Part shown: positions 1 through 44,520 of the stretch, piece after piece
How positions within the stretch are numbered: the first letter of the stretch is position 1
Layout of the letters: every line of letters starts with the position of its first letter
From: the human T2T-CHM13v2.0 reference genome, Homo sapiens
Length of the DNA stretch: 64,000 nucleotides
Assembly: GCF_009914755.1 (NCBI RefSeq)
Contig: NC_060925.1
Strand: one strand, 5' to 3'
Position numbers and translations under genes: made by a program
The notes under the pieces: generated by a model
What the model was told of the DNA's origin: nothing
Database searches by the model: none
Seen by the model: the letters and a program-made list of their open reading frames with translations, nothing else

Positions 1-967
1 ACTTTTCTTTTCCTAAAGACAACAGAAAACTTTGGTCCCACACATTCTGCTACAAATCTTGGTGGTCCTTTTTGTCCCCAATTCATTTCCTTAACCTACA
101 TATTGAAATATCTTGGCCTTTACTTGGGGTTGTTTTGTTCTTCCTTTGTTTGAGGTGGAACCACTTTATGGTTCTCTTCCTGATGCACATGTATGTCCTT
201 CACATACTAGTGTGTCTTAGCCCCCACATTTGTTCCTGAGACACCATACTAATTTGCTCTCTTCAAGGAAGCTACTAGCATTGCCTACTTGCTGAAATAT
301 CTCAAGTAATTCCAAGCAAAGGGCTTGAGTTAATATTAATAGAAGGCTAGATTCCTAGAATGACCAGAAAACTCATGGAAAACCCTCCAGTGACTCCCTT
401 TGCCCTACAAGATAATGCCAAGGGTCCTTCATTGTCATGAATCTATCATCTAGTTTCCACCTACCTCTTCAGTATTATCATTTCTAATTTTGTTATTCTC
501 CATTTTCTATATGCCTTTTGTACACTCTGAAGCTAACCAACTATTTGCTTGTTTTAAAACAAATAAATGTGATGAACAAAATAAATGTGGTCTCTGCCCT
601 CATAGGCCTTATTGCCTGGTTCAAGATAGTCCCAGTAAACAGAAAAATGAGGGAAAATACCTTACCAGTTTAAGTTGATTCTCTGAAGAAAAAGTGCATG
701 CAGGCGATAGAGGAGAGAATACTAAGATAAACCTAATTTAGATCGAATGGCATAGGGTTGGTTTCCCAGAGAAACTGAGAGTTAACCTGCATGTAACCTG
801 AAGGGTAATTAAAAGTCTTCAGGTAAAGGGGATATCCTTTAGGACAGAAGAAACAATGTGTACAAAACCCCTGAAGCAAGAACTGGATGAGTTGGAGACA
901 AGCAAAGAAGGCCTGTATAAATGCTGTTTTAAAAATGCTTTTCAATTGACAAAATTATATATATTTA

Positions 968-2266
<1,299 letters not shown>

Positions 2267-2749
2267 AAAACATGATATTTTGATACACATATGTATTGTA
2301 GAATGGCTAAAGTTAATTAACATATACCTTTAGCTCATGTACTTATTTGTTTGTGGTGAGAACACTTACAATCTACTGTTAGCAATTTTCAAGTATATAA
2401 TACATTATTATTAACTATAGTCACCAAGATATGCAGTAGAGCTTTTAAAATTATTTCTCCTATCTAACTGAAATTTTGTACCCTTTGATAAACATTTTCA
2501 AAACTCTCCCCTCAACTGCTCAACCAATTTCAGCCTCTGGTAACCAACATTCTACTCTCTGCTTTTATGAGTTTGACTTTTTTTAGATTCCACATATGTG
2601 TGAGATCACATGGTGTTTGTCTTTCTGTTCCTGGCTTATTTCACTTAGCATAATATCATCCAGGTTCATCCATCTTGTTGCAAACAGGACTTCTTTCTAT
2701 ATATGGCTGAATAATATTTTATTGTGTATGTATACCACATTTTCTTATA

Positions 2750-2834
2750 TTAGGTTGGTGCAAAAGTAATTGTGTATTTTTTTTTGCCATTACTTTCAAT
2801 GGCAAAAACTGCAATAACTTTTGCACCAACCTAA
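2750..2834. mobile_element. MADE1 (Hsmar1 mariner-derived MITE)
   Basis: Terminal inverted repeats TTAGGTTGGTGCAAAAGT...ACTTTTGCACCAACCTAA, about 85 bp, flanked by TA on both sides (2748-2749, 2835-2836). Confidence 0.93.
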
Positions 2835-4308
2835 TACATTTGTCCGTTAATAGACACTTACTTAGGTTGATTCCACACCTTGACTATTGTGAATAATGCT
2901 ACATAAACATGGGAGTGCAGCTATCTCTTTGACATTCTGACTTTATATCGATATACATCAAGTAGTGGAATTACAAGATCATATGGTAGTTATATTTTCA
3001 GTTTTTTGAGGAACCCCTTACTGAGTTCCATAATGGCTGTACTAATTTACAACTGTCAACAGTGTGTAGGGGTTCCCTTTTCTCCAAATCCTCCCTAACA
3101 CTTTACATCTTTTGTCGTTTTGATAATAGCCATTCTAACAGGTGTGAGGCGATATCTCATTGTGGTTTTAATATGCATTTTCTGATGAATAGTGGGGTTG
3201 AGCATTTTTTCAGCTACCTACTGTCCATTTATATGTCTTGGGAAATGTCTATTCAGATTCTTTGCCCATTTCTAATTGGGTTATTTGTTATTTTATGATT
3301 GAGTTTTTAAAGTTCTTCACATGCTGTGAATGTTAACCCATTATCAGATATATGGTTTGCAAATATTTTCTCTCATTACATATGCTGTCTCTTTATTCTT
3401 TTGATTGTTACTTTTTCTGTGCAGAAGTTTTTTAGTTTGATGTAATCCCATTTGTCTATTCTGGCTTCGATTACCTGAGCTTTTGGGGTATAAATTCTTT
3501 TTCTGCTTTCTCTCTGGAATGAATTTGAATTTACTGACAGCATGGGTTTTTGCACCAGACACAACTTTGTTGACCCAGTTCCTTGTATGGTGCCTGGCAT
3601 AACAGAAATATCTGTTTTATGAATGGCCATCACTGTCCTGCAATTTTATGTGCCCCCCAATCTTGCTCTGCCATCTTCATGCCTTATCTTGGTGAATATT
3701 AACTCCATCCATTCTAGCAACCATGCCAAGCACATGGAAGTCATCTTCACTACTTTTTTTTTTTTAATCCTCATACCACCCATTGTGTCCTATAGATTCC
3801 ACTGGCTAAAAGTTCCTCAATCACATTCCTTTTCTGTTTTTACAGGATCATCCTGTCTTTTCTGGATTACTGCAAAAACTTCAAGTCCCTTGGTCCCCAA
3901 TCCATTCTTCACACTGCTGCCAGGGAAGTCTTAGGGTTGTTGTGATGGTTAATTAGAAAATATGTGTTAAACACTTACAACAGTTGTCTGGCATATACTG
4001 AGCACTATTTTAATGTTGATTTTTATTATCATGGTCATCATCATCTTTCTAAAATAAAAATCTAATTAAATAATATCCCAGGTTATAAAACTTTCAATAG
4101 TTTCTAACAGATTTGAAGGTACATTTTAACTCTGTTAAAAATTCTACCAAAGTACTTGTTGTTCCAATAAAATACATTGTTTCATGCCCTTTGCTTTTAC
4201 ATGTATTTCCTGAAAATTTATGATTTCTTATTATTTGTCTACCCACTACTCAGATTTCAAAACTTCACTCAAGCATAACCACCTCTAAGTAGTTATTGAC
4301 CTCCATAA

Positions 4309-4739
<431 letters not shown>

Positions 4740-5059
4740 GGAGGGTTAATTTCTTAAGGTAAAAACTACCAATTATTTGAACTCAGATCACCTAAACACA
4801 ACACAGTTCATGACTGAAACTAAACTTTGTAATAGATAAATACATGAATGCTCTCTCTGGGCACTATAACTGAGTTCTCCCACATTCTGCCTCATTTCCC
4901 ATATTTGCTCCTTGCTGCTGTCACTGCTGGATCTACAAGCACCTGTCAGTCCATTGCTCTGCCATTTCTCAAAATATATTCCTTCCCTTGAAATAGAGGC
5001 TTGAGTTAAGGAGTGAATATTCTTGTCTCCAGCAAAAGGGCAAAAATCAGAAACTATAG

Positions 5060-5403
5060 GAGGAAGCCCATGGGAGGTTTTTCTGCTGATTGTATTTCTA
5101 GTAGCTTCTAGATTTGTAATGAGTCACTTCACCAAAGGATCTAAAATAGGAAACCAACTAATTTCCTGAGTCTATTCCTTTATCTATTTGGAAAAAAAAG
5201 CCTTGAGGAGCATTTTCCCTTTGGATCATAGTTGCTAATTGAGGGAGGGCAGAATGTGTCAGAAGCAATGTGGTCATGGCTCTCTAGGGTGCTAGATAGT
5301 AAAATTACCAAGCAGGCATTGATGCTAATGTGAACCAGAAAAAAAGCTCCTTAATTATACTCATTAGGCCTGTAGCTGATCCAGCCCATACAGAAGAGGC
5401 ACA
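5060..5403 (+). promoter_or_regulatory. OR10R2: Putative OR10R2 promoter and 5'UTR with homeodomain (Lhx2/Emx2-type) and O/E (EBF)-like sites
   Basis: GCCCATGGGA 5066-5075 (O/E-like), TAATGA 5117-5122, CAACTAAT 5155-5162, TGCTAATTGA 5233-5242, CTCTCTAGGGT at about 5280, CTCATTAG 5360-5367. Colinear similarity to 19810-20120 and 43910-44535. Confidence 0.65.
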
Positions 5404-5430
5404 ATGACCACTGTTCTGGGGAGCGAAGTA
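5404..5430 (+). CDS. OR10R2: Putative first coding exon of OR10R2 (MTTVLGSEV)
   Basis: ATG at 5404 with A at -3, exactly 9 codons, then a consensus GTAAGT donor at 5431 (phase 0). This matches the phase-0 acceptor at 13015/13016. Confidence 0.75.
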
Positions 5431-6769
5431 GTAAGTCATTTGTTGCTGTCTTGAAAAATTTTAAGAGACTAGCAGGAAGATGTGTAATATATTGGGAATA
5501 TGCTAGTTTTGGGGAATTACTTAGATTTTTCCTTAAAGGGCCTGGGCCATGATTAAGATATACGGCAACTGCATTCCTCTGTACCCCAGGATTCGTGTTT
5601 TAAAGAAAGTGAAACTCTTTCATATTGGAGATTTGGTCTTTATTCCATAGATGGCTTGCAGAAATTAAATTATCTAAAATCTTAGGACATATTTATGTCA
5701 TTTTAAAGATGTTAGCTAGTTATGCCTTTTATCTTATGTTTAATTCAGAAATTGTTGAGATTTTCTTCAAATTGCAGTCTACAAATACGTGACAGCAAAG
5801 GATTGGAAGGTGGTAATAGGAAAAGTAGCTGGATGGGCAGATAAAATAATGCTCAAGTTGAGATCTTAAGGTCAAGAAAAAAGAACATTAGAGATATTGC
5901 AGAATGGTCAAAAAGGCTATCCCTGGCACCAGTCTTAAGAAGGAATGAAGGAAGAAAGGAAAGAAATATTTAATTAGGGCTTCTTATAATTCTGGGCTAC
6001 ATTTTTTACTTATGTTGTCCATTCATCTTTATAACATCCCATATTACAGAAGAGAAAACTAAGATTCAGGAGGATTAATTTATTTGCTCAAAGAAAATGC
6101 TGAAATAAGAATGTGAATTCCATCTTGAGTGCTTTCTTCATAACATAAATTTTTATCTAGCTTCCTTGATCGCTTGCTGGAAGTATCTTTACCAACTACA
6201 TGAAAAATACCTACAAATTAGTTGCAATGATTTATTTAGGTATTAATTTGCTTAATTATAATTTTGTCAGATTTTGAATATTTGTTCTTGCTAGAAACTC
6301 TGATGCTGATGTGGTTAGAGAGATGTATATAAATGTTTGGTGCATGATACGGAAACTTTTGTCAAATGAACAACATAGTCTTTGATTCTAAGAGCTTAAA
6401 TTGTACCAGGTAAGAATGATCATTGTATAGAATGATCTAAAATGTAAGAAGTCCAAGAATGAGTGTTTCACAAGGGTAAAGATCTTTGGTTTGTTCACTG
6501 TTGTATCTCAAACACCAAATAATGTGTCTCAGATTTAGTAATGTATACAATAAATAGTTTTTAAATTGAAATAGTGCTTGGAAACCTGACTTACAGGGAA
6601 GTGATTTGAAAGATTAGAGGATCTGCCCTAACACAGGAAAAGGCATTGTTGTTATAAGACATGGCTCTTTGCATGTTCAGTGAACTAAGAAGTTCCATAA
6701 GATTAAAACATTGGGATAAAATCTGGGAACTGGAATAAATGTTTGCAGTGTTGTGAGAGATCTAACAGC

Positions 6770-7125
6770 CTTTTTCCTTGTCTTTCCTTCCTTTTTTCTT
6801 CCCTTTCTTTCCTTCCCTTTCCCTCCCTTTCTTTATCCTTCCTTCCTTCCTTCCTCCCTCCTTCCCTCTTTCCCTCTCTGCTTCCTTCCTCCCTCCTTCC
6901 CTCTTTCCCTCTCTGCTTCCTCCCTCCCTCCTTCCCTCTTTCCCTCTCTGCTTCCTTCCTCCCTCCTTCCCTCTTTCCCTCTCTGCTTCCTTCCTTCCCT
7001 CCCTCCCTCTCCCTCCCTCCCCCTCTCTCTTTCTTTCTTTCTTTTTCTTTTCTTTCTTTTTTCTTTTCTTCTCTTTCTTCATTTCTCCCTTTCTTCCTCT
7101 CTTTCTTCTTTCTTTCTTTCTTTCT
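6770..7125. repeat. Polypyrimidine tract containing a 35-bp minisatellite (4 copies, 6846-6985) and (TTCC)n/(TTTC)n runs
   Basis: Unit CTTCCTTCCTCCCTCCTTCCCTCTTTCCCTCTCTG; its single G recurs at 6880, 6915, 6950 and 6985. Confidence 0.95.
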
Positions 7126-8029
7126 AAGAAAATTGGAATTTTACAACGTTTGCAGGGATTATTATAGGGTTCTGAGTAAGAAGGTACTTGGTAAAATGTA
7201 AATTTAAATGTCTCTGTGACTGCCACTTCTGAGTTGAACTGTTTCAACACCCACCTTACCATTTATTCTCCTATCCTCTCCCATCTTCTCCTAGCTGTTC
7301 TCTGTGTTCGCAATGCCATGCCTCCTATTCTCAGGCCCCTGTATCTCTGCTGCCCAAATCACTCTGGAAAATAATCTCCTCCAATTGCCCTTCCCAAGTC
7401 AACAGGAGTGGAGGTAAAAATGAAAAACAGAATGAAACAAACAAAACCCTATAGCTTCCTACTTTGAATAAATTTGTTTCTTCTAATTTCTCCCTTCAGG
7501 CTGGATACAAGAGAGGAAAGGCAAACAAAAATAAAGAGTGTCATAAGATATTTATTCTTTTTAAAGAAATACAGATTCTCTTAAGATTCCATAGTTCTGG
7601 CTCTAGAGAGGAATCAGTCATGTAGAAAATACCAGACAGGGGTTACAGGGGGCCTGGAGAGAAAAAGAAAGTTCATTCTCCAATAAAGATGTTATGAATC
7701 AGTTGGTCAGCCCATTGAGTGTGTATTCTATTTTTGTAGTTCTATCTGCAAGAAAAAGTACAAATATATTTTAATTGACACCTAGTATGCATGCACACAT
7801 ACACAAATTGAAATAAAATATTTGCTTTAAATAAGAGCTATTCAGACTGGGTATGCTTTATTTTAATCTTCTCTTCTTTTATCTGCTCTCCATTTAAATT
7901 TAAAAACTGCTGGGGTTGAAACCTAATTTGATTCTATAACCTCAGTGATGTAATAAACATAAAGTTTCAAAATCACTGTCTTAAAACGTATTTTCCTATA
8001 AGACAAAGAGACCAGCAAAAAAAAATTAA

Positions 8030-8260
8030 TAATAGTTAAGAAAATAATACCACTAGATAGAGCACTTATTATGTAGCAGGTGTTGTTCTCAGCACTCTAT
8101 ATAAATTAATACATTTAATAATAATCACAGCCTGTTTCATAGATGAGACAACTACAATATAGCGAGGTTAAATAAATTGTCTAAGGTTACAGTCACCCAA
8201 TGGAAGAACTGGTACCCAAAGCCAAGTTACCTTCCTCTAGATTCCATACTGTCATTCAAT
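8030..8260 (-). mobile_element. MIR SINE remnant
   Basis: 'gagcacttattatgtagcagg...catagatgagacaact...gaggttaaataaattgtctaaggttacag' matches the MIR core in reverse orientation. Confidence 0.7.
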
Positions 8261-9343
8261 ACACAATAATCCTGCCTTTCTTAAAACAAGTACTATTAGT
8301 TTGTGTTACAATTTTCAATTTTTCCCTATTAAAAATACATTTTTACATATAAATCTCTATAGGCAACTTTTAAGAAATAGAATATTGGAATAAATTAGAT
8401 AAATATATTCAAGGATGTAGATATAGTTTGCTAAATTTCTTGGCATAAACAAAACCAAATTATAATCTTATTAGTAAATTTTTTGTTACTAGTCATATAA
8501 CACCACCACAGCTAATTTGATGAGTGTAAATAATATCTCTACTTTACTTTATTTGAAATACACTTCAAGTTAAAATATATTTTTAACATAAATTTTTATA
8601 TGTTTGATGCATTCTATTTCTATTTTATAAACTGTATGCTTTTATCTGTTTTCTTCTTCAAAGTTTGTTATTTTCTCCATCGGCTTGTAATACATTTTTT
8701 ATTAATATTAACATCTGAAGAATATTTTTGGTAGTTTTCCATTTGTTGTTTGCTTTCTATTATTTCTAATTGTGCCTTTCTGTAAATAAATATTTTATTT
8801 TACACCAATTGTTGCTTAATACTCTTTGATAATATCTCATTATTGTTTACGTTTAGCTTTTCAAATTTTCTGTCCAGTAATACAATGTTTTCTAATCCTT
8901 TACATTTTTTTGTATTTTATTAACATATAAATTTTGAATGTATCCGTTGAAAATTTAAACTGATATTTAAAATGTATTAAAGATGTATTTATTAAGTTAC
9001 TATTATAGGTCAGAAACAGTTTAGGTGGCATTGAGATGTTTTATATTTTAAAAATCATTAAATTTTTGTTTAGGTAAAGAATTAAGGTATAAACTTTCTT
9101 CTGATAACTGCTTTAAATTTAGCCATATTTTCTAATATATATAGCTGACATTATTTTCTAGAACTTATTTTATTTTACATTATATTTTCCCTTTGACCCA
9201 ACACTTGTTTAATAGTATTTTCAAATTATCATATGGAAGAGCTTTCAAAAATATGATTTTCGTATGATTTTATTGTTACTGATCAATGGTTTTGCTCAAA
9301 TGTACAGACAGGTTTTCTATATTTTTTAAAAAAAATTTAAGTA

Positions 9344-9682
<339 letters not shown>

Positions 9683-9839
9683 TTAATTAATGCTTCTTTA
9701 AGTATATAGGATAAATGTGTAAGATACGTTTTAGTCTTTACAGTTTTTGATCAATGTTTGTGAGCACTTGGATAGTCATGAATATGAATAAGATGAAAGG
9801 GTGATGGATCATTTCAATGTGTAGATACAAGTCTTTTAT

Positions 9840-11435
9840 TTCATAGCATTCTGACTGGTGTGAAATGGTATCTCATTGTGGTTTCGATTTGCATTTCTCT
9901 GATGATTATTGATGATGAGCATTTTTCATAAGTTTCATGGCTGCTTGTATGTCTTATTTTGAGAGGCGTCTGTTCATATCCTTTGCACATTTTAAAATGG
10001 GGTTTATTGTTTTTTGCTTGATTTGTTTAAGTTTCTTAAAGATTCTGAATATTAGGCCTTTGTCTGATGCATAGTTTGAATATTTTCTCCCATTCTGTAG
10101 GTTGTCTGGTTCAATATTTGAAAATCAATAAATGTAATTCATGACATAAACAATTAGAAATGAAATTCATATGATCATCTCAATAGATGCAGAAAATTTT
10201 CAATAAAATCTAACGTCCCTTCATGATAAAAACCCTCAACAGACTAGGCTTTAAGGAACATATCTCAAAATAATAAGAGCCATCTGTGACAAATCCACAG
10301 CCAACATCATATTCAACAAGCAAAAGCTGGAACTATTCTTGAGAACTGAAACAACACAAGGATACCCATTCTTACCACTCCTATTCAAGGCAAGAGAAAG
10401 AAATTAAAGGCATCCAAATAGGAAGAAAATGTCAAACTATTTGTCTCCATTGTTGATATTATTCCATATCTAGAAAACTAATTTAAAGACTCTGCCAAAA
10501 GGCTCCTAGAACTGATAAATGACTTTAGCAAAATTTTAGGATACAAAATCAATCTAAAAAAGTCAGTAGTGTTTCTATATATCAATAATGTCTAGACTGA
10601 GGGTCAAATCAAGAACACAATTATATTTGAATAACCACAAAGAAAATAAAATATCTAGAAATGCACCTAATAAAAGAGGAGAAAGGTCTCTACAAGGAGA
10701 ACTAAAAAACACTGCTCAAAGAAATCAGAGATAACACAAATAAATGGAAAAACATTCCATACTCATGAACTGGAATAATCAATATTGTTAAAATGGCCGT
10801 ACTGTCAAAAGCAATTTACAGATTCAATGCTATTCCTATCAAACTACCAATGTAATTTTATCAGAATTAGCAAAACTATTATAAAATTCATATGAAACCA
10901 AAAAAGCCCTCAAATAGCCCAAGTAACCCTAAAGAAAAAGAACAAAGCCAGAGAGAAGCATCATACTAGCCAACTTCAAACTATACTATAACGTTACAGT
11001 AACCCAAACAGCATGGTTCTGGTGCAAATACAGACACATAGACCAAAGGAACATAATAAAAAACTAAGAAAGCAAGCTGCACACCTACAACCATCTGATC
11101 TTCAACAAGGCTGACAAGAGCAAACAATGGAACAAGGACGCCCTATTCAATAAATGGTGTGGGAATAGCTGGCTAGCCATCTGCAGAAGAGGGAAACTGG
11201 ACCCTCACTTTTCACCATATACAAAAATTAACTCAAAGTGGATTAAAAATTTAAATGTAAAACCTCAAACTCTAAAAATCCTAGACGAAAACCTGGGGAA
11301 TACTATTCTCAATATCAGCCTTGGCAAAGAATTTTTGGTTAAGTTCCCAAAAGCAATTGTAGCAAAAACAAAAATTCATAAGTGGGAGCTAATTAAACTA
11401 GAGCTTTTGCACAGCAAAAGAAACTATTGACAGAG
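9840..11435 (-). mobile_element. Older primate L1 (L1PB/late L1PA) ORF2 fragment with inversion: 9840-10110 on -, 10111-11435 on +
   Basis: The + segment ends at '...gaaactattgacagag', and the adjoining L1 sequence ('acaacctacagaatgggagaaaata') is the reverse complement of the end of the - segment. Confidence 0.85.
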
Positions 11436-12603
11436 AGAAGAGATTCTTATTTCTACCTGTTAGAACCTGAGGGGAGGTTTATGTGCAGTAATTAGAAAAA
11501 ATTTCATATAAGCTAATTTTATTTAATGGGATTCTACCTGACTAAAAAGTATTCTTGTCTTCTCTTATACTAAGATTTAATTAACTGTTACTAGAAAATC
11601 AAAGGTATACTACATTGCTTTGACTATTTACTGCAGAAAAAAACTATTGTAAGTTTCAAACCCCAATTTTCATTTTTTCATAAACCATACACAAAGTTTT
11701 TCCTAAAAGCAGTTTATGTATCAGAATTCAATGACTCTACAATGGACCATGTTTTATTTAAGGCATGCTGGACTCCATGTGTGTCTATAGATGAAGATGA
11801 TGGGTAAGGAAAGAAGGAAGGTGATAAGGATAATTCTAGTCACTTCAGAAAATACTTATTCTGCATATAAATACAGATAATTAGTCATAATCTGTTTGCT
11901 CATTTTTCTTGAATGTCTACATTATTGCTGTTCAAAGTGGGGAATAAGTGATATTAACCTAATTCAATCCATCTATATTGAGCTCAACAGAACCTATCTC
12001 CCAACCCTCTGTTCAGGTATATAATATCTTCTTTTGTAAAATGTGTTTATGGTTATTTTAATTATTATTACAAATATAACTGGGCATTACTAGAGTGGTA
12101 AACTTTATCAGCCTGAGAATGCAAATAATCAACTTACAATTGTTTCTATCAACAATCTTCAAAGAGCTGTGATGTGTTCCAGAAACACTTAAAGATCCTA
12201 GAGTAGGACTAAAATGGTGACAATTAAATGGATCACAATGCTCCAAAAGCCTCTATTTAGTGATTAAACTAGACACATTTGGGCAATTCTGATTTCTTTT
12301 CATATAAATTTTATAATCATCTTATCAACCTTTAGATGAAAAGCCTGCTGGGATTTGTTAAGAATTATGTTGACTACATAGACCAATTTGGTCAGAATTG
12401 CTCTTTATTTTATTACATCTTTAAACTCATGAACATGGGTGTTCTTCATTTAGTCATATATTTTATAATTTAACCCAGCAATGTTTGAGAGATTTCTCTG
12501 TATATGTCTCACACTTTTTTGTTAAATCTGACACTAAGCTTTTTTATGATATTGTGAATTGAATTGTTTTCTTAATATCATTTTTAGATTTTTTGTTGCT
12601 TGT

Positions 12604-12950
12604 TGTAGTAGGCCAAATAATGAGCTCCCAAAGATGTCTATGTTTTAATCACCAGAACCTGAGAATATGTTAGATTATACAAGCTCAAGGAATTAAGGCT
12701 GCAGAAGGAAAGTCAACTGACAATAAAATAGAGATATTATCTTGTATTATTCTGGTGGGCCCAAAGTAATCATAAGGGTTCTTAAAATTGGGAGAGAGAA
12801 TCAGAAAGTCAGAGAAAGAGATGTAACTTTGTTGACTTTGAAGATGGAAGAAGAGGACCATGAACCAATGAACATGAGAGGTAGTTAGGAACCGGAAAAG
12901 GTGAATAAAAGGCAAGATTCTTCTTTGTCACCACCTGAAAGGAACAAAGG
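12604..12950 (+). mobile_element. MLT1 (MLT1D-like) MaLR LTR fragment
   Basis: 'tgtagtaggccaaataatgagctcccaaagatgtc...gtgggcccaaagtaatcataagggttcttaaaa...ttgaagatggaagaagaggacc' matches the recalled MLT1 LTR consensus. Confidence 0.8.
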
Positions 12951-12955
12951 AGTGC

Positions 12956-13963
12956 ATGCCCCAAATTCTTATATTCACATACCTGAATATGTTTTACTTC
13001 TTTCCCCCTTTGCAGATCTTGGCAGAAAACCTCACCATGGTCACCGAATTCCTGTTGCTGGGTTTTTCCAGCCTTGGTGAAATTCAGCTGGCCCTCTTTG
13101 TAGTTTTTCTTTTTCTGTATCTAGTCATTCTTAGTGGCAATGTCACCATTATCAGTGTCATCCACCTGGATAAAAGCCTCCACACACCAATGTACTTCTT
13201 CCTTGGCATTCTCTCAACATCTGAGACCTTCTACACCTTTGTCATTCTACCCAAGATGCTCATCAATCTACTTTCTGTGGCCAGGACAATCTCCTTCAAC
13301 TGTTGTGCTCTTCAAATGTTCTTCTTCCTTGGTTTTGCCATTACCAACTGCCTGCTATTGGGTGTGATGGGTTATGATCGCTATGCTGCCATTTGTCACC
13401 CTCTGCATTACCCCACTCTTATGAGCTGGCAGGTGTGTGGAAAACTGGCAGCTGCCTGTGCAATTGGTGGCTTCTTGGCCTCTCTTACAGTAGTAAATTT
13501 AGTTTTCAGCCTCCCTTTTTGTAGCGCCAACAAAGTCAATCATTACTTCTGTGACATCTCAGCAGTCATTCTTCTGGCTTGTACCAACACAGATGTTAAC
13601 GAATTTGTGATATTCATTTGTGGAGTTCTTGTACTTGTGGTTCCCTTTCTGTTTATCTGTGTTTCTTATCTCTGCATTCTGAGGACTATCCTGAAGATTC
13701 CCTCAGCTGAGGGCAGACGGAAAGCGTTTTCCACCTGCGCCTCTCACCTCAGTGTTGTTATTGTTCATTATGGCTGTGCTTCCTTCATCTACCTGAGGCC
13801 TACAGCAAACTATGTGTCCAACAAAGACAGGCTGGTGACGGTGACATACACGATTGTCACTCCATTACTAAACCCCATGGTTTATAGCCTCAGAAACAAG
13901 GATGTCCAACTTGCTATCAGAAAAGTGTTGGGCAAGAAAGGTTCTCTAAAACTATATAATTGA
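12956..13963 (+). CDS. OR10R2: Olfactory receptor family 10 subfamily R, intact; the true coding exon probably begins at 13016
   Basis: 335-aa ORF with OR motifs GN, LHTPMYFFL, MGYDRYAAICHPLHY, HYFCD, KAFSTCASHL, PLLNPMVYSLRNKD, and an N-glycosylation site NLT. Name recalled from the N-terminal sequence and length. Confidence 0.95.
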   Translation: MPQILIFTYLNMFYFFPPLQILAENLTMVTEFLLLGFSSLGEIQLALFVVFLFLYLVILSGNVTIISVIHLDKSLHTPMYFFLGILSTSETFYTFVILPKMLINLLSVARTISFNCCALQMFFFLGFAITNCLLLGVMGYDRYAAICHPLHYPTLMSWQVCGKLAAACAIGGFLASLTVVNLVFSLPFCSANKVNHYFCDISAVILLACTNTDVNEFVIFICGVLVLVVPFLFICVSYLCILRTILKIPSAEGRRKAFSTCASHLSVVIVHYGCASFIYLRPTANYVSNKDRLVTVTYTIVTPLLNPMVYSLRNKDVQLAIRKVLGKKGSLKLYN

Positions 13964-13988
13964 AATATTATTACATTTTAGATTTCTT

Positions 13989-13994
13989 AATAAA
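13989..13994 (+). terminator. Candidate proximal polyadenylation signal for OR10R2
   Basis: AATAAA 25 nt after the stop codon. The context is AT-rich, so chance occurrence is possible. Confidence 0.3.
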
Positions 13995-16629
13995 TAATGC
14001 CTTTTTATCACAAGCATATTATAACTGTAACAAATTCATTGAAATAATAGGAGTCCTTAAGAGGCATGTCATAAAATATGTTTTTCTCCTTACAGTCTCT
14101 TTAAATTTAATCCACAAGCTAATGTTTTTCATTTCCTCATATGGAATCTCAGGGAACTCCTCAAATTTAAATGCCTAGTCCACTGGGATAACTGAAAATT
14201 TAAACTTAATTTAAAGCTAAAATTTCTGCCTTTTCTGGGTGTTGAATTTTGAACTGGGAAGCCTTCATTGGTACCAGTGAAGGTTGACTTATGTATTAGC
14301 TCTTTCAGCAAACACTTTTCTCTCTACTTATTTCAGTGACTGACCCTTCAAGCATTATACTGGGGAGGGAGGGATAGGTGGAGGGAACATCTTGCTTCAT
14401 TGCCACAGTCATGCTCTGGCAATACTGCTTTCAGATGTTGCACACTGAGTCTTTCTTATGCAGGGAGCTTTCATGGCTGCTGAAATAATTCCTTACTCGG
14501 AACTTCTACCACATTTCCTGTGATATGGTTGAATCTGCCTCTAGCTGACAGCTTGTAAAGTTTCCTCCTAATTCTGAGGTTTCAACATTTATCTGGGTCC
14601 CATGTTTTCTAAAGGTCTTATTGGACAAAATGTTATTTTTAAGTGATTCCACAATGACAATTTCTCCTAAATGGTCAATATGTGATCCAAAAGAAAATTT
14701 TGACAATCCTTGCTACCCATAGTCAGTTGAAGTGCTGACATATTTCTCTGTGTACTGGTATTTCAGGCCAGTAACTGCAGATTTCTACATTCAGATTTCT
14801 CAGGTGAGCTCAGATAGCAATCCACTGTGTTCCTTTATCTCCAGCAGATATATATCAATATCTTGAAGCAGTTTTCTACTCTTGGGGAGAGATAAAACAT
14901 TAAGAAAGTCAAGAGCTTCCTCCAAAGATTATATTTCCACCCCTTTTTTCTCAAAATTTTTATTTTTTAAGAGCAGTTCACATATTTTATTCTCTCAGCT
15001 TTTGTGCCTCAACTGAAACTAAGAAAAACTGCCTTTTATGACATTGCTGCATGTTTTTCCTATAGTTTAAGGTGTTATGATGGTGTTTATTGGTAAATAT
15101 TTAGTTCATAAAGTTACCATCTGTATACAGAGTCAAGTAGTTGGCCTGACCAGTGGTATAGCCGTAAATAGTCACCTTAATCACTCTAGATCACATTTTG
15201 CAGCACATGGTTTTTTGAGAATCTGTTGAAAGCTATGTATCTAATGCATGAAACTCTCCTCATGCACATATACAGGAAAAAAAAAACTTGCTTACAATCT
15301 GAGGAGTTTACATAGTATACAAAGTCCATCCCTAAATCCAATTCATGGGAGTACTTGTTCATGGCCAAAGTCATATAATCTATTTAAATTTGCTTTCATC
15401 ATTTCACCTTTTCTTTTTTACTTTTAACAATTTGTTGTAACTTTTTTTTACCTGATTGAAAGGTTATTTATATCATCATGTCACAGAGTTTACATGTTTT
15501 ATAATTTTATTATAACAGCAGGATAGATTAATAGACATCCCTGCTGCTATCTTCTAGATCCCTTTAATGGATTTAATTTCCTTTTTAATATCAAATTTCA
15601 GAAAAATTTACCGCAAGGTAGGCAGAGAAACTATCCTGGTCAAGATAGCATATTCAATTAACTAGAGTATTGCTATTTTATGTCACATTCGTTAAAAATT
15701 TAGGAGAAGGTACTGTGCAGTCTAACATTTGAGGTTTTTAAATACAGAATATGTATACATTAGGAAAACTAAATTCTATACTGTGAAAAGAAATGAAAAG
15801 TAAGCAGGAAGTTTCAGAAATAAACTACACTTAACATCTTGATCAACTTTCATGAAAAGTAGCTGATTTTTGTGTCCAACACTAATGTATAGAATATTTT
15901 CTGCAGCATGCCGACATGAATGTGATTCAAAACATTTTTTTCTATCTTACTATATGGCTCTAGTTTCCTACCATCCTGGCATATAGGTCTCTTGAATTCC
16001 TTTTTTTATTAGTAGAAACAAGAAAGAGTTAAAATTATGTTTAAAAGATATTATAATAATAAACAGTAGAATAATACTTCTACAGGAAAATAATTTGCAG
16101 TGACAAAATGGCCTTGTTTGCCATCATCATACTATAGCCATCATTAATTAAAAAGGCAGTAGAAGATAAACATAAATTTGCCATTCTGTGCACCACATTT
16201 CTTTACTTACAGCTTATAAAGTGGGATCCTATGGAGAATGGTCCTGTACCGGCCTAAGAATCAAAAAAGGTCTTATTTGAAAAGATTATCTCCTTCTTTG
16301 TCCAATGTCTACCATCAAAGTTTTTTTTATTTTCACCTGTTTCATGAAGTATTACCTGATTTCCATTCTTCAAAACACCATAGCATTGTAAGCTTTACTT
16401 ATACTTCTTACTGAGCTCTGACATATTGAGCTGATTATGTACATATCTTATTTTCTCTAATGGACAATCAACAACGTGAAAGGAAGTAATTTATTATACC
16501 GATACATTAACTCCTCCTAAATGTCTTTTATATCCCTGACATTCAGGAGATAACTAATACATGTCTCTTAACTTTAATTGAATAAATGACTTCTTGGTCT
16601 AGCTAAGAAAAACATCTGAAACTACATGT

Positions 16630-19809: not shown

Positions 19810-20097
19810 ACATCTCTGACTCCTTAGAGAATTTCCAAGAGGAAGTCAACTAATCCCCATGAATAATAGGGCTTTTTCTTTGGCCAATGAATTCTCATAG
19901 TGTATTATCATGGTTCCACATGCTAATTAGAAAAATTATGGACAAGTATTGGGCACAATGTGGTAATTAGCTCCCTGTGGAGATGGCGAGCTCACTTACC
20001 AACCAAGGCATTGAGACCATGGCTAATGTAAAAAGGAAAGGCCATTGATGACACCCATTGAGGCACTACCTAAAGCACCCATGGAGACAGGGCACAG
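19810..20097 (+). promoter_or_regulatory. OR10R3P: Putative promoter and non-coding exon 1 of OR10R3P
   Basis: CAACTAAT 19847-19854, TGCTAATTAG 19921-19930, TAATTAGCTCCCTGTGGA at about 19964-19981, and donor CAG/GTAACA at 20097/20098. Colinear with the OR10R2 module. Confidence 0.6.
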
Positions 20098-24296: not shown

Positions 24297-25238
24297 ATGG
24301 CCAATTCTTCCTCTGTCACTGAGTTCTTAGTGCTGGGCTTCTCTAGCCTTGGGGAATTGCAGCTTGTCCTCTTTGCAGTCTTTCTCTGCCTCTATTTGAT
24401 TATCTTGAGTGGAAACATCATCATCATCTCAGTCATTCATTTGGATCACAGCCTCCACACACCCATGTACTTCTTTCTAGGTATTCTTTCTATCTCTGAA
24501 ATCTTCTACACAACTGTTATTCTGCCCAAGATGCTTATCAACTTATTCTCTGTATTCAGGACACTCTCCTTTGTGAGTTGTGCCACCCAAATGTTCTTCT
24601 TCCTCGGTTTTGCTGTCACTAACTGTCTGCTTCTGGGAGTGATGGGTTATGATCGTTATGCTGCCATCTGTCAGCCTTTGCAATACGCTGTTCTCATGAG
24701 CTGGAGAGTATGTGGACAACTGATAGCAACTTGTATTATTAGTGGCTTCCTAATATCTCTGGTGGGAACAACTTTTGTCTTTAGCCTCCCTTTCTGTGGC
24801 TCCAACAAGGTCAACCACTACTTTTGTGATATTTCACCAGTTATCCGTCTCGCCTGTGCTGACAGCTACATCAGTGAACTGGTCATCTTCATCTTCGGGG
24901 TCTTGGTGCTTGTTGTGCCCTTGATATTTATCTGCATTTCCTATGGCTTCATTGTCCGCACCATCCTGAAGATCCCATCAGCTGAAGGCAAACAAAAAGC
25001 CTTCTCCACCTGTGCTTCCCATCTCATTGTAGTCATTGTCCATTATGGTTGAGCTTCCTTTGTCTACTTGCGACCCTCAGCCAAATATACATCGGGCAAA
25101 GATAGGCTGGTGACAGTGACCTATACCATCATCACCCCAGTCTTGAACCCCATGGTATACAGCCTCAGGAACAACGATGTGCAGATGGCTATTCGGAAAC
25201 TGATTGGAAAGTCTGGGTTTTCTCTTAAGACTCTATGA
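24297..25238 (+). pseudogene. OR10R3P: OR10R paralogue with one premature stop (TGA 25050-25052) in an otherwise intact 313-codon frame
   Basis: 251-aa ORF with OR motifs. After the TGA the same frame continues ASFVYLRPSAKYTSGKDRLVTVTYTIITPVLNPMVYSLRNNDVQMAIRKLIGKSGFSLKTL* to 25238. Symbol recalled from gene order. Confidence 0.92.
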
Positions 25239-28200
25239 GCAGAATACTTTCTAACAGTATGGACACCATTAGAACAATTGTGTCACGATTATTTAAACCA
25301 TGAGATTATCTAGTCTATTTATCTAACTAACTGCGAGGCCTTGGATTAATTGTTTGACATTTGGGGCCTACATGTTCTATGTAAAGCAGAGATAGCAATA
25401 TTTTCTTCCTGGAGTCATTGTAATTAAGATAGATTACAAAATATCTGGCAATAAAACATAACTCTCCTCCTCTTTCTCTTCTTCCTCTGAATTTAAAGTC
25501 CTCAAAAGGGTCTTAGCAACCATCATTTTTTGCCCTATATTTGTCTTGCTTGACCAAGATCTCTGATTGCACTCTGTTTAAGGTTATGTCCAGCTTAAAA
25601 TGAGGTGTCCAGGCCTGAAGGTGGCTTAGATCTAGTGGTATGACATGGCAGGGAAAACTGTACCATACAGGTAATTAGATGATTTAAAACTGGACACTGG
25701 TTAGGTCATGACTGAAGCGTTGACTCTTCTCTGAATCTAAATTCTAATATATGGAAGGTAGGGATAATGTAATTTCCCTGTTTTACTTCATGGGGGCTTT
25801 ATTTGTATCTTATAAATAGTATAAAAGAAAGTGTAAAAGCAGTGCAAAATGTGAAACCATATACAATGTAGAGCTCATTTCAAACATGCTTTCCATAACT
25901 GAGAGGATTTTATTTCTTTCAAGGTCCTCAAAACAGGTATTTTGGAATGGCTTTTCTGACTGCTCCTTTGAACCACTTCTTATGCAATGTAGAAGTTTTG
26001 CTATGTAACATAGAAGTTATGCTTCATAATGGAATGGAAAACAATATTCAACCATTCCGTCCCATCTTGGGCTAAAGGTATCTACGTGGCTTTCCACACT
26101 GAATTTATTAGGAAGAGGAAGATACCCAGCTTCAAATTTATCATGGGAATATATAAGATTTGAGAGAGAAGTATCTTGGTGATCATCTGGTCCAACCTCT
26201 CACCTGTACAGAAATTTCTTCATCAGTATCTCTAAGGGAAACCCTTCTCCACTGATTGGGCATCAACGACCTCATAAAATGTATATTCCCGTTGCACTCA
26301 GCTCATACTATTATCCCCTCTCATTTCAGCTGAAGTTTGCCTCTGCTTTTCATGCATTCTATCTCTTGTGTCATACAGTAAGTCGAGTCCTGATTCACAG
26401 ATGTTTGAGACAGTTATGATGACAGTCTGAACATTTTCCATAATTTATGTGACCTGAATTTCAGATGCCTCACTATCCTGGGTGCAGTTCTCTAGCTATG
26501 CTGTAGATTATCAGTATTCTTTTAAAATAATAATAAATAAAACTGAAGTTCATATTTCATATGCAGCCTCTTTTTTCTGGGACATAATATAACTGTATTC
26601 TTTCCTGTTAACCTTATTTAGATTTTCAAATTAAAATGTGTCAAATCACAAATAATGTTTTCTTATATTTAAAAATTATAACCTCTGTTCCAATTTTTAT
26701 CTCCCTTTTCCAGTTTTTGGCCTAGGTATTTTTATTTATTTTCATTTTACTTCATTTCATTTTCATGGTTAAATAATTAAGGCATTTCAAGTACAACATT
26801 GGTTATTGCCATTGTTTTCTTCTGTTCTTTTTTTTTCTAATGGGTTTATATTTCTCATTTATTGACCAAATGTTATTTAGGAATGGAGTGTTTATGTATT
26901 ATAGATATATTCTTGCTGATATTTAAATAACTTCTGTTATTTATTTCTAGTTTTGTTTGTGGGAGAATGTGATTGACAGTTCTATTTTTACAAATTATTA
27001 TGTTTTATTAGTGGTTTCTTATGAATTATGCCCAGTGAAGCACATTCATTTAGATTAAAATTTTGGTATGTGTAGATGTTATATTTATTTTATGAATTAA
27101 ATTTAATTAAACTATTTTAGCACACTATATTGTTATTGGTGTGTATATAACCTGTCATGGTTTCATAGTGCCAAATTAAAATGCTTTACTGCATTTTAGA
27201 GCTTATTAGAGTTTTATACACTTCTAACAACATTGATGTTGAATTTTGTTGTGAAATCTTTTATTACATACTAAATAAACCTCTTGGGATTTAACATGTA
27301 TTTCTACCTATAAATGCACTAAAATAATAGTAGGTGTATTAAAAAATACATATAAGCCCTCATCAAGAAGGTAAACAGGAGAGAACAACACAGGGCAGAC
27401 ATCAAAACAATTATAGAAGCAAAAATAAAAAGGATGATTGACATGGTTGTAAGAGAAAGAGAGAAAGTTGAAAACATACCTGCAAAACGGGGAAGCCAAC
27501 CAGTTCACAACACCAAACTGTATCTGGACATTCTTGTCACAATTGGGTCACCAAGATGACATTGGAAAGAGTAAGATTGGCTTAATATCTGAATAAGGAA
27601 CTCGACTTCTCCATCAGTGCTTCTCAAATCATCTGCAGTAAAGAACCAGTTTCTTTTTACATTTCATAGAAGGCCAATACTTCAGTAAAATATGATAAAA
27701 ATCAACTACTAGAAAAACGAAATGAAAAGCACCTGAGCTATTCTATATTCTGCTCCAAAAATGTGTCTGATTATGTGCTTGTATGTTTCAGTAATACCAA
27801 ATTTTATAATAGTTGCTTACCACTGGTAAGTAACACAAATATAATTTAGTTTCTATACCTGTCTCATTACAAGCCAATAACAAAAAGCTCATAGATCATC
27901 ACTAGACTGCCAACTCCCAACGGAGTAGCATTGCTTTGTATCTGTTGAATGCCAGTTTAAGATTGGAGGTTAAGTTTTACAGCAGTTAAACTAAGGACTT
28001 CTGACTTCAAACACTCGGTAGAACAGAGGCAAATGTAAGGGGCTATACTTCAAGCAGAGGATTAAATGTGAATGCTTTCATACTATGAGGCAGCACCAGC
28101 CTCTTTCCCAACACTCAGACCCCAGATTGACAGCCAGTCTTACACCTTTCACTTAGGTAGTAGGAGTGTTTCTTTCTGGAGAAGGTAATGAGAAGTTATG

Positions 28201-43909: not shown

Positions 43910-44520
<611 letters not shown>

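What the first reader, a model, noticed from the sequence alone, without database searches (positions are those of the whole stretch)
5404..13040. OR10R2 has a split CDS: a 27-nt coding exon 7.6 kb upstream supplies the start codon
Seen: the first 20 codons of the 335-aa ORF (MPQILIFTYLNMFYFFPPLQ) are encoded by a pyrimidine tract ending in TTTGCAG at 13015, and that ATG abuts an MLT1 LTR. Exactly 9 codons (ATG ACC ACT GTT CTG GGG AGC GAA GTA, 5404-5430) followed by GTAAGT sit in a motif-rich promoter-like block, and both junctions are phase 0. Inference: splicing across the 7585-bp intron gives MTTVLGSEV-ILAENLTMVTEF..., 324 aa, which keeps the NLT glycosylation site. The next in-exon Met (13037) would lose that site. 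Established: vertebrate OR CDSs are usually single-exon, with a small set of split-CDS exceptions, so curated annotation may already include this one.
Basis: partly seen in the sequence, partly recalled or inferred. Interest (0 to 1): 0.8.

Follow-up and report, generated by a model that had tools for sequence, protein, structure and literature searches.

The report
OR10R2 two-exon coding sequence, already annotated

Summary
ATG 5404 is followed by 9 codons and a GTAAGT donor at 5431. A pyrimidine tract ending in CAG at 13015 is the acceptor. Both junctions are phase 0 and the spliced ORF is 324 aa. This is already known. RefSeq NM_001395749.1, the selected transcript, has the same CDS. Barnes et al. 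2020 (PMC7055050, Supplementary File 3) list OR10R2 ENST00000641067 with a 324-aa ORF, the intron after residue 9 and a 7585-bp span.

Three points may be new. All rest on predicted gene models or weak DNA similarity.
1. The family-typical start position, two to three codons before the N-glycosylation Asn, is TTG in human (13019). It is ATG in the paralogue OR10R3P and Met in 4 of 23 orthologue models.
2. A homologous 8–9-residue leader appears in models from orangutan, lemur, tenrec, horse, pig and gundi, although Barnes noted no conserved mouse orthologue.
3. The promoter and leader exon appear paralogous upstream of all three OR10R copies in the window.

Which start codon is translated is not shown. 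ATG 13037 has an optimal context, is Met in 22 of 25 models, and would give 308 aa. Novelty: already known. Interest is low.

The parts
5216..5241 (+). O/E-like site (TCCCTTTGGA, 1 mismatch to the recalled consensus) plus homeodomain core TAATTG, 60-80 nt upstream of the annotated TSS
   Evidence: one of only 2 O/E-HD pairs within 30 nt in the 64 kb. The review PMC12547500 (passages) says OR promoters often carry O/E and HD motifs within a few hundred bp of the TSS.
5298..5430 (+). Exon 1 (133 nt): 106-nt 5' UTR plus the first 27 coding nt
   Evidence: Hub annotation NM_001395749.1. HAVANA exon 158472220-158472352. Sequence. No second copy found in the genome by the DNA search (1 candidate, itself).
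5322..5333 (+). Two upstream ATGs (5322, 5328) opening 3-codon and 1-codon uORFs that end at TGA 5331-5333, out of frame with 5404
5404..5430 (+). Coding part 1: ATG plus 8 codons (MTTVLGSEV). Start context GGCACAATGA, with A at -3 and A at +4
   Evidence: In-frame stop upstream at 5377. Homologous leaders in 6 orthologue models.
5431..5436 (+). Splice donor GTAAGT. A second in-phase GT lies 3 nt upstream at 5428 (GTAGTA)
   Evidence: With intron retention the frame stops after 16 codons.
5431..13015 (+). Intron, 7585 nt. It contains the antisense lncRNA exon 7534-7745 from the hub table
   Evidence: The length equals Barnes Supplementary File 3 'IntronSpan 7585', which is the top of the human range quoted in their text.
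12586..12902 (.).
   Evidence: 329 first-look candidates, 40 scored (the query's own locus plus 39 others at 68-81% identity), covering query positions 27-343 of 12560-12955.
12956..12958 (+). ATG of the 335-aa single-exon ORF. Weak start context (T at -3, C at +4)
   Evidence: RefSeq's other transcript is CDS-only, 12956-13963 (hub table).
12989..12991 (+). ATG of HAVANA's single-exon isoform, which is also 324 aa
   Evidence: ENST00000641400 at 158479911-158480885 equals window 12989-13963 (offset checked against four other coordinates)..
12990..13015 (+). Polypyrimidine tract (87% Y over 12990-13012) and CAG acceptor. TTTAC at 12992-12996 fits a branch-point consensus by eye (recalled consensus)
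   Evidence: 10 of 25 orthologue models read through it and end in Q (CAG) at this position.
13016..13963 (+). Coding part 2 (315 codons plus TGA stop at 13961-13963)
   Evidence: Pfam 7tm_4 E 9.5e-56 over residues 51-328 of the 335-aa frame. 13 solved OR structures match at E <= 1e-20.
13019..13021 (+). TTG (Leu) at the position where the family-typical start codon lies
   Evidence: by my reading of the alignment, with a one-codon shift from the tool's own columns, it lies opposite the OR10R3P ATG 24297-24299 (MANSSSVTEF). Met at this position in 4 of 23 orthologue models and Leu in 19. Solved ORs have the sequon Asn at residue 3.
13028..13036 (+). N-L-T N-glycosylation sequon
   Evidence: The sequon is kept in 22 of 23 orthologue models that cover it.
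13037..13039 (+). Downstream in-frame ATG in optimal context (ACCATGG), giving 308 aa without the sequon
   Evidence: Met in 22 of 25 orthologue models, and two models (307 and 304 aa) start here.
13964..14014 (+). 3' UTR, with AATAAA at 13989-13994, 20 nt before the annotated transcript end
   Evidence: and the hub table.
19955..20097 (+). Probable paralogous promoter/leader exon 4.3 kb upstream of OR10R3P. It holds the window's other O/E+HD pair and a donor-like CAG|GTAACA where OR10R2 has its ATG
   Evidence: second-best of 1052 tiles, z 7.2.
44326..44450 (+). Probable paralogous promoter/leader exon 3.5 kb upstream of OR10R1P
   Evidence: 68% over 101 nt, E 0.018. (best of 1052 tiles, z 9.0).

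Best explanation
OR10R2 is a class II olfactory receptor gene transcribed from an OR-type promoter near 5298. Its primary transcript is spliced from the GTAAGT donor at 5431 to the CAG acceptor at 13015, removing 7585 nt. On the mature mRNA, the first ATG with a long frame is 5404, after two tiny uORFs. It encodes a 9-residue leader joined in phase 0 to the receptor body. The product is a 324-aa receptor that keeps the N-terminal NLT glycosylation sequon.

The leader is needed, by inference, because the position where this subfamily normally starts (M-A-[E]-N-x-T/S) is a Leu codon, TTG, in human. The 60 nt upstream of 13016 that extend the single-exon ORF to 335 aa are mainly the intron's 3' end, a pyrimidine tract that is poor in stop codons, and not conserved coding sequence.

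Shown here: the sequence anatomy, the match to curated models, and leader homologues in other species' gene models. Inferred: that 5404 is the codon ribosomes use, and the order of evolutionary events.
For: 1. **Anatomy.** ATG, 9 codons, a consensus donor, a strong acceptor, phase 0 at both junctions, 324 aa.
2. **Curation.** RefSeq's selected transcript has this CDS (hub table). HAVANA's CDS coordinates map to 5404-5430. Barnes 2020 Supplementary File 3 lists 324 aa, 9 aa and 7585 bp. Their stated rule for manually built models was at least 3 junction-spanning RNA-seq reads (methods passage).
3. **Leader conserved.** Of 25 OR10R2-clade protein clusters retrieved, 6 carry a homologous 8-9-residue leader before [VI][LM]A...: Pongo MTTVLGSEV, Lemur MAAVLGSEV, Echinops MVAVLGSAM, Equus MNIVMRSEV, Sus MSVLRSVV, and Ctenodactylus MATLLRNEA, which is a low-quality model. 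A Daubentonia 'isoform 2' model (MTTVLGSKG) joins the same leader to a paralogue-like body.
4. **Acceptor conserved.** In the 21 models that extend upstream of the junction, sequences diverge exactly there. Ten read through a pyrimidine-coded stretch ending in Q (CAG), 6 carry the leader, and 5 carry unrelated upstream sequence.
5. **The upstream ATGs are not conserved starts.** The tarsier model has Thr where human has M1. The pig and beaver models start elsewhere.
6. **Family-typical start lost.** TTG 13019 lies opposite the OR10R3P ATG in my one-codon-shifted reading of the alignment. The position is Leu in 19 and Met in 4 of the 23 models that cover it. Solved ORs place the sequon Asn at residue 3.
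7. **Sequon.** It is kept in 22 of 23 models, so an N-terminus that includes it is the conserved state.
8. **Promoter.** An O/E-like and HD pair lies 60-80 nt upstream of the TSS, the arrangement the review passages describe for OR promoters.
Against: 1. No protein-level or ribosome evidence was seen.
2. ATG 13037 sits in an optimal context, is Met in 22 of 25 models, and gives 308 aa. Barnes' own mouse filter removed transcripts with a conserved downstream in-frame ATG giving more than 300 aa. Two equid/rhino models start there.
3. Two uATGs precede 5404, and its +4 base is A, not G.
4. The HAVANA tag is 'RNA_Seq_supported_partial'. The 12 normalised counts in the Supplementary File 6 passage are low (0 to 21, three of them zero).
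5. Barnes note 'no conserved mouse orthologue'.
6. The orthologue leaders come from predicted gene models, some possibly built by projecting the human protein. Models that lack the leader cannot tell us whether the exon is absent in those species. This is an ascertainment limit.
7. A phase-0 ATG-to-donor mini-exon is not rare by chance: 4 candidates with GTRAG in 13 kb.
8. The lemur model lacks the sequon (NFA).
Confidence: 0.72

Rival explanations
1. Exon 1 is functionally a 5'-UTR exon. Its ATG is a tolerated in-frame upstream ATG, and the main product starts at ATG 13037 by leaky scanning or reinitiation after the uORFs. That would give a 308-aa receptor without the N-terminal glycosylation site.
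For: - 13037 has the optimal ACCATGG context, while 5404 has A at +4 and follows two uATGs.
- Met is present at this position in 22 of 25 orthologue models, and two models start there.
- Barnes report in-frame uATGs in 13.6% of human protein-coding ORs.
- The similarity of exon 1 to the leader regions of the two paralogues ends just before 5404. The coding tail is therefore specific to OR10R2.
Against: - The product would lack the NxS/T sequon, which 22 of 23 orthologue models keep. It would have only 2 residues before the VTEF block. Solved and consensus ORs align from the sequon onward.
- The leader ATG and its frame persist in models from primates, a rodent, perissodactyl, artiodactyl and afrotherian species.
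- A Met inside NLTM-VTEF can be conserved as an ordinary residue.
Confidence: 0.15
2. The receptor is made from an unspliced, single-exon mRNA starting at 12956 (335 aa; RefSeq's other transcript) or 12989 (324 aa; HAVANA's other isoform). The spliced form would then be minor.
For: - The frame is open from the stop at 12902, with ATGs at 12956 and 12989.
- The 335-aa form is the representative of two database clusters (P0001 with 62 members, Colobus P0002 with 46 members).
- Read-through N-termini are modelled in 10 of 25 clusters.
Against: - Both single-exon models are CDS-only, with no UTR or TSS evidence (hub table).
- The extension coincides with the polypyrimidine tract and CAG of a conserved acceptor.
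- Its start positions differ between species, and the tarsier model has Thr at M1.
- 12956 has a weak start context.
- Residues 4-19 are hydrophobic (mean Kyte-Doolittle 1.47), which is atypical for an OR ectodomain tail.
- A dispersed repeat, not a promoter-like block, lies just upstream.
Confidence: 0.08
3. The 5430-to-13016 junction is low-level splicing noise at a weakly expressed gene, and the in-frame ATG is coincidence. The leader similarity in other species would then be ordinary conservation of a non-coding first exon.
For: - Low counts and a 'partial' RNA-seq tag.
- The chance rate of phase-0 ATG-to-donor mini-exons is not negligible.
- The promoter and exon-1 body are conserved even upstream of pseudogene paralogues, so exon conservation need not mean coding.
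Against: - The ATG and an 8-9-codon in-frame length are kept across distant placentals, with one whole-codon length change in pig.
- Consensus donor and strong acceptor.
- Without this exon no start codon precedes the conserved sequon, except the non-conserved read-through ATGs.
Confidence: 0.05

Closest known systems
Split-CDS olfactory receptor genes of Barnes et al. 2020 (13 human, 41 mouse), second class: genes with both a split and a single-exon isoform
   Same: This is that very entry: OR10R2 ENST00000641067, isoform 2, 324 aa, intron after residue 9, 7585 bp. The intron lies in the extracellular N-terminal tail, as in 12 of 13 human cases.
   Different: Nothing differs in structure. It has the longest intron of the human set (range 1384-7585). 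It is one of four accepted without a conserved mouse counterpart. Here I add leader homologues from non-mouse mammals.
First class of split ORs in the same paper (for example mouse Olfr1174-ps/1175-ps/1177-ps and human OR5D3P), where the conserved initiation ATG is missing from the main exon and is recovered in the upstream exon
   Same: OR10R2 also lacks an ATG at the family-typical position (TTG at 13019) and finds one 9 codons upstream of the junction. That is the same intron position (9 aa) as in the Olfr1174 group.
   Different: OR10R2 was never called a pseudogene, because chance ATGs in the intron's 3' end keep a single-exon ORF open. The paper therefore files it in the second class.
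Ordinary OR gene structure: one or more non-coding 5' exons spliced to a single coding exon
   Same: Promoter with O/E-like and HD motifs, a short first exon, a multi-kb intron and an acceptor just upstream of the receptor body. The two paralogous pseudogenes in the window appear to keep the same layout.
   Different: Here the last 27 nt of the first exon are coding.
OR transcripts that share or borrow 5' exons of a neighbouring OR (readthrough and chimeric loci in Barnes et al.)
   Same: A Daubentonia model joins an OR10R2-type leader to a paralogue-like body.
   Different: No such transcript is annotated for human OR10R3P in the hub table, and none was tested here.

Membership tests
Vertebrate olfactory receptor (class II, family 10), rhodopsin-type GPCR | Matches the OR-specific 7TM profile over its full length | tested here: met
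   Pfam 7tm_4 PF13853, E 9.5e-56, profile positions 1-280 of 280. 7tm_1 E 8.4e-34.
Vertebrate olfactory receptor (class II, family 10), rhodopsin-type GPCR | Close sequence relatives among solved OR structures | tested here: met
   13 distinct PDB sequences at E <= 1e-20. The best are bmOR6A2 (8.1e-99) and consOR2, consOR5 and consOR6. The alignment starts at the sequon Asn.
Vertebrate olfactory receptor (class II, family 10), rhodopsin-type GPCR | N-terminal NxS/T sequon and the MAYDRY-type motif after TM3 (motif names recalled) | tested here: met
   NLT at residues 25-27 and MGYDRYAAICHPL in the translation.
Split-CDS OR gene (criteria of Barnes et al. 2020, methods) | Longest ORF of the transcript spans two exons and encodes more than 300 aa with seven intact TM segments | tested here: met
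   324 aa from 5404 across the junction. Full-length 7tm_4 match.
Split-CDS OR gene (criteria of Barnes et al. 2020, methods) | [quoted passage not shown] | tested here: not met
   ATG 13037 gives 308 aa and is Met in 22 of 25 orthologue models. The filter was described for the mouse screen. The authors accepted OR10R2 on other grounds.
Split-CDS OR gene (criteria of Barnes et al. 2020, methods) | Starting Met conserved in orthologues | tested here: inconclusive
   Homologous leaders with Met appear in 6 of 25 clusters, from five placental orders. They are predicted models, and absence from the other 19 says nothing. No genome alignment was possible with these tools.
Split-CDS OR gene (criteria of Barnes et al. 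2020, methods) | Splice junction conserved in orthologues or closest paralogues | tested here: met
   All 21 models that extend upstream change character exactly at the junction. Ten end in the CAG-coded Q.
Split-CDS OR gene (criteria of Barnes et al. 2020, methods) | Junction supported by RNA-seq reads (at least 3 for manually built models) | not testable with these tools
   I saw only the paper's rule and the tag 'RNA_Seq_supported_partial'. No read data are available here.

The most novel reading that the evidence does not exclude
OR10R2 may be a case of start-codon relocation.
- The promoter plus leader exon is ancestral to all three OR10R paralogues in the window. The similarity of the OR10R2 leader region (5205-5403) to 19955-20097 and to 44326-44450 ends right before the ATG at 5404.
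- Both paralogues have a donor-like AG|GTAA at that point. In OR10R2 that donor is gone and the exon runs 27 nt further, to GTAAGT.
- This extension created an in-frame ATG before the placental radiation.
- The ATG became the only sequon-preserving start once the in-exon ATG changed to a Leu codon. That position is Leu in 19 of 23 models, while the three afrotherian models and one rhinoceros model keep Met.
- The OR10R1 clade, which has a conserved acceptor before VN[FL]W.QVN.ANFSS and no in-exon Met, would be a second, undescribed split-CDS lineage of the same subfamily.
Probability: 0.4. Interest if true: 0.3.

Novelty: already known. Interest (0 to 1): 0.12.

Why it matters
**For the scan.** A reader working from raw sequence recovered a correct, non-obvious two-exon CDS. 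That is a good calibration result, not a discovery.

**For biology.**
- Many expression constructs and databases still use the 335-aa form, whose first 20 residues are probably intron.
- Choosing the 324-aa N-terminus could matter for surface expression and deorphanisation of this receptor.
- The small additions are testable by genome alignment. They are the lost family-typical ATG, the leader seen in several placental orders, and the paralogous leader exons.
- If confirmed, they would strengthen a curated isoform that was accepted without orthologue support.

Tried and rejected
- **BLASTN of exon 1 against the window** found only the weak 44326 match. The 19955 paralogue was missed by BLAST and by the whole-genome DNA search (self only). 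It turned up through the motif-pair scan and was then tested by local alignment against 1052 tiles and against shuffles. The margin over the next-best tiles is small (38 and 34 versus 32), so I treat the paralogy as probable, not proven.
- **Thy-ncR1 as the source of the junction.** I asked whether this thymus-specific RNA could explain the exon-1 junction. It is antisense to OR10R2, and the sense RNA was undetectable in thymus and Jurkat cells by RNase protection (PMC3023731, passages). It therefore cannot supply a GT-AG junction on the + strand, and I rejected it as an explanation. It remains a confound for unstranded 'OR10R2' expression reports.
- **A coding leader upstream of OR10R1P.** I looked for an ATG-plus-donor pair in phase with its acceptor by eye. 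None fits phase 0. I did not pursue this because the gene is a pseudogene in human.
- **Ungapped identities** are meaningless for proteins with indels, such as Pongo and Ctenodactylus. I used the identities for those.
- **The MLT1 family name** could not be checked, because no repeat library is available.
- **Literature search.** 'OR10R2' found 21 papers. None of the 20 listed concerns its gene structure. The gene name does not occur in the main text of Barnes et al., only in its supplements. I found no printed discussion of the lost in-exon start or of leader conservation. This rests only.

Full report
**1. Observation**

The window is human chr1 and carries OR10R2 on the + strand.
- Reading 5200-5520 shows ...GGCACA ATG ACC ACT GTT CTG GGG AGC GAA GTA | GTAAGT. 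The ATG is at 5404-5406, the ninth codon ends at 5430, and the donor is at 5431-5436.
- Reading 12860-14040 shows ...TGTTTTACTTCTTTCCCCCTTTGCAG | ATC TTG GCA GAA AAC CTC ACC ATG GTC ACC GAA TTC. The AG is at 13014-13015.
- The only long ORF there under the standard code is 12956-13963, 335 aa.
- 13016 lies 60 nt after 12956, so the acceptor is in phase 0 with that frame, and the donor follows a complete codon.
- A script that joined the two annotated exons gave a 324-aa ORF from 5404. It also gave two upstream ATGs in exon 1 (5322 and 5328, with 3- and 1-codon uORFs ending at a shared TGA) and a second in-frame ATG at 13037 giving 308 aa.
- An in-frame stop lies upstream of 5404 at 5377. Intron retention would stop the frame after 16 codons.

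Every coordinate in the finding is right.

**2.

- Pyrimidine tract. The 60 nt that encode the first 20 codons of the 335-aa frame are 68% pyrimidine. The real tract is 12990-13012, at 87%.
- Repeat. Window 12560-12955 gave 329 first-look candidates in the window's own genome. Of these, 40 were scored: the query's own locus at 100% and 39 others at 68-81% identity, on both strands and many chromosomes. The matches cover roughly 12586-12902. An old dispersed repeat is therefore present and ends at least 54 nt before the 12956 ATG. No tool could name its family as MLT1.
- Promoter block. With recalled consensus patterns, an O/E-like site (one mismatch) at 5216 and a TAATTG core at 5236 lie 60-80 nt upstream of the annotated TSS at 5298. 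The 64 kb hold 17 such O/E-like sites and 137 homeodomain cores, but only 2 pairs within 30 nt of each other. Passages of a 2025 review (PMC12547500) state that OR promoters often have an O/E motif within a few hundred bp of the TSS, together with HD motifs.
- Chance. There are 3 GTAAGT on the + strand in 1-13015, and one of them has a stop-free phase-0 ATG before it. With GTRAG there are 4 such candidates. The pattern alone is weak evidence.

**3. It is already known**

- The hub's RefSeq table gives NM_001395749.1 (selected) with coding parts 5404-5430 and 13016-13963.
- Barnes et al. [quoted passage not shown] I read the abstract, sections 7 and 16, passages, and Supplementary File 3 in full. 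Files 1, 4, 5 and 6 I saw only as search passages.
- Supplementary File 3 lists 'OR10R2 ENST00000641067, isoform 2, chr 1, ORF 324, intron position 9 aa, intron span 7585'. [quoted passage not shown]
- 7585 bp is the upper end of the human intron range quoted in the main text.
- The HAVANA GTF passage gives exon 158472220-158472352 and CDS 158472326-158472352, tagged RNA_Seq_supported_partial. With a constant offset of 158466922, these are window 5298-5430 and 5404-5430.
- The second HAVANA transcript, 158479911-158480885, maps to 12989-13963. HAVANA's single-exon isoform therefore starts at the second ATG of the read-through frame and is, by coincidence, also 324 aa. RefSeq's other transcript starts at 12956.
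- The gene name does not occur in the main text of that paper. The full-text search for 'OR10R2' found 21 papers, and none of the 20 listed is about its structure.

**4. What the paralogues and orthologues add**

*The family-typical start is missing.*
- I aligned the coding-exon starts of the three OR10R copies in the window. In my reading of that alignment, shifted one codon from the tool's own columns, OR10R3P has ATG GCC AAT TCT TCC opposite OR10R2's TTG GCA GAA AAC CTC ACC.
- OR10R3P reads MANSSSVTEF from its ATG at 24297, in a 313-codon frame with a single internal stop.
- In the solved OR structures closest to OR10R2, the sequon Asn is residue 3.
- The usual start position of this subfamily therefore corresponds to the TTG at 13019-13021.

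*Orthologue models.* A protein search with the 335-aa frame scored 8000 candidates and listed 120. A second search scored only residues 1-40 of the orangutan protein (21 hits of 65 candidates). I took the 25 clusters of the OR10R2 clade and anchored them on the VTEF/LLGF block. I left out three listed OR10R2-named clusters that lacked the anchor: Balaenoptera, Galemys and Marmota. Their N-termini are frameshifted, truncated or chimeric.
- At the TTG position, 19 models have Leu and 4 have Met (Elephantulus, Loxodonta, Echinops, Ceratotherium). Two start further downstream.
- The NxS/T sequon is kept in 22 of 23 models. Lemur has NFA.
- Upstream of the junction, 10 models read through a Phe/Leu/Pro/Ser-rich stretch ending in Q, which is the pyrimidine tract and CAG.
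- Six carry an 8-9-residue leader that is clearly homologous to the human one: Pongo MTTVLGSEV, Lemur MAAVLGSEV, Echinops MVAVLGSAM, Equus MNIVMRSEV, Sus MSVLRSVV, and Ctenodactylus MATLLRNEA (a low-quality model).
- Five carry unrelated upstream sequence, and 4 start at or after the junction.
- The read-through starts are not conserved. The tarsier model has Thr at human M1, and the pig and beaver models begin elsewhere.
- A Daubentonia 'isoform 2' model joins MTTVLGSKG to a paralogue-like body.

*Limits.* These are predicted models, and some may be built by projecting the human protein. Even so, each leader must exist in that genome as an ATG, an open frame and a donor, and the leaders differ in sequence. 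Models without the leader do not show that the exon is absent.

**5. The leader exon looks older than the subfamily**

- Local alignment of 5205-5450 against 1052 tiles of the window, on both strands, put two + strand tiles on top. They are 44281, 3.5 kb upstream of OR10R1P (score 38, z 9.0 against shuffles, 0 of 300 shuffles as high), and 19921, 4.3 kb upstream of OR10R3P (score 34, z 7.2, 0 of 300). The next-best tiles scored 32, so the margin is small.
- The second O/E+HD pair of the window lies in the 19964-19972 region.
- In the three-way alignment, similarity runs from the motif block through the TSS region to GGCACA (5398-5403) and stops at the ATG. At that point both paralogues read AG|GTAA, which is donor-like.
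- My inference is that the ancestral first exon was non-coding and ended there. In OR10R2 the exon was extended to the GTAAGT at 5431, which brought in an in-frame ATG. This is a hypothesis built on alignments of 60-70% identity.

**6. Mechanism and rivals**

*Most likely (0.72).* The spliced mRNA is the main transcript, and 5404 is the start that preserves the conserved glycosylated N-terminus.

*Main rival (0.15).* Initiation at 13037.
- It has an optimal context, ACCATGG, and is Met in 22 of 25 models.
- 5404 has A at +4 and follows two uATGs.
- Barnes' mouse screen excluded transcripts with such a conserved downstream Met. Their discussion says proteomics would be needed in such cases.

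*Unspliced 335- or 324-aa forms (0.08).* Support is weak.
- Both models are CDS-only.
- The extension overlaps the acceptor.
- The start positions vary between species, and 12956 has a poor context.
- Residues 4-19 are hydrophobic (mean hydropathy 1.47).

*Splicing noise with a coincidental ATG (0.05).* This is hard to reconcile with the leader being kept in frame in five placental orders.

**7. Confound for expression claims**

- Thy-ncR1, a thymus-specific lncRNA, is antisense to OR10R2, and its exon 2 covers the coding exon. Sense OR10R2 RNA was undetectable in thymus and Jurkat cells by RNase protection (PMC3023731, passages).
- A T-ALL study validated 'OR10R2' by SYBR qPCR (PMC2913983, passage). 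By my comparison of the printed primers, they lie inside the coding exon, so the signal may come from the antisense RNA.
- This does not affect the junction argument, because a GT-AG intron on the + strand cannot come from a minus-strand transcript.

**8. Verdict**

- Novelty: already known. Interest: 0.12.
- The added points are the lost in-exon start, leader conservation beyond mouse, paralogous leader exons, and a likely second split lineage in the OR10R1 clade. They are modest and need genome alignments and transcript data.

Noticed in passing
window 47990-48045 (+), OR10R1P: A polypyrimidine tract ending in TAG|G lies directly before a frame reading VNLWDQVNQANFS, and the TAG is an in-frame stop. 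OR10R1-like models of other mammals keep VN[FL]W.QVN.ANFSS with no Met at the usual start and unrelated sequence upstream. That clade is probably a second split-CDS OR lineage. No mouse chr1 gene is in Barnes' list.
   Followed up: partly
window 19955-20097 (+) and 44326-44450 (+): Probable paralogous promoter/leader exons upstream of OR10R3P and OR10R1P. They are the two best of 1052 tiles against the OR10R2 leader region. The first carries the window's only other O/E-like+HD pair.
   Followed up: yes
window 24297-25240 (+), OR10R3P: A 313-codon OR frame starting MANSSSVTEF, interrupted by one in-frame stop (HYG*ASF). No frameshift was seen. The ATG is at 24297, one base before the annotated span start of 24298.
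   Followed up: partly
window 7534-28018 (-), LOC107985213 / Thy-ncR1: An antisense lncRNA spans the OR10R2 intron and coding exon. The published Thy-ncR1 (PMC3023731) is thymus- and T-ALL-specific, and its exon 2 covers the OR10R2 CDS. 'OR10R2' signals in T-cell studies (PMC2913983) may be this RNA.
   Followed up: partly
window 12844-12890 (+): A short frame, MEEEDHEPMNMRGS, at the edge of the dispersed repeat resembles N-terminal stretches of the Camelus (EEGDHEPEAAKNWKK) and Ceratotherium (EEGDYES) OR10R2 models. Those species' models use this repeat-adjacent stretch as coding sequence ahead of the receptor body.
   Followed up: no
window 5428-5436 (+): Two in-phase GT dinucleotides 3 nt apart (GTAGTAAGT) could serve as tandem donors, giving 8- or 9-codon leaders. 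The pig model has 8 residues.
   Followed up: no
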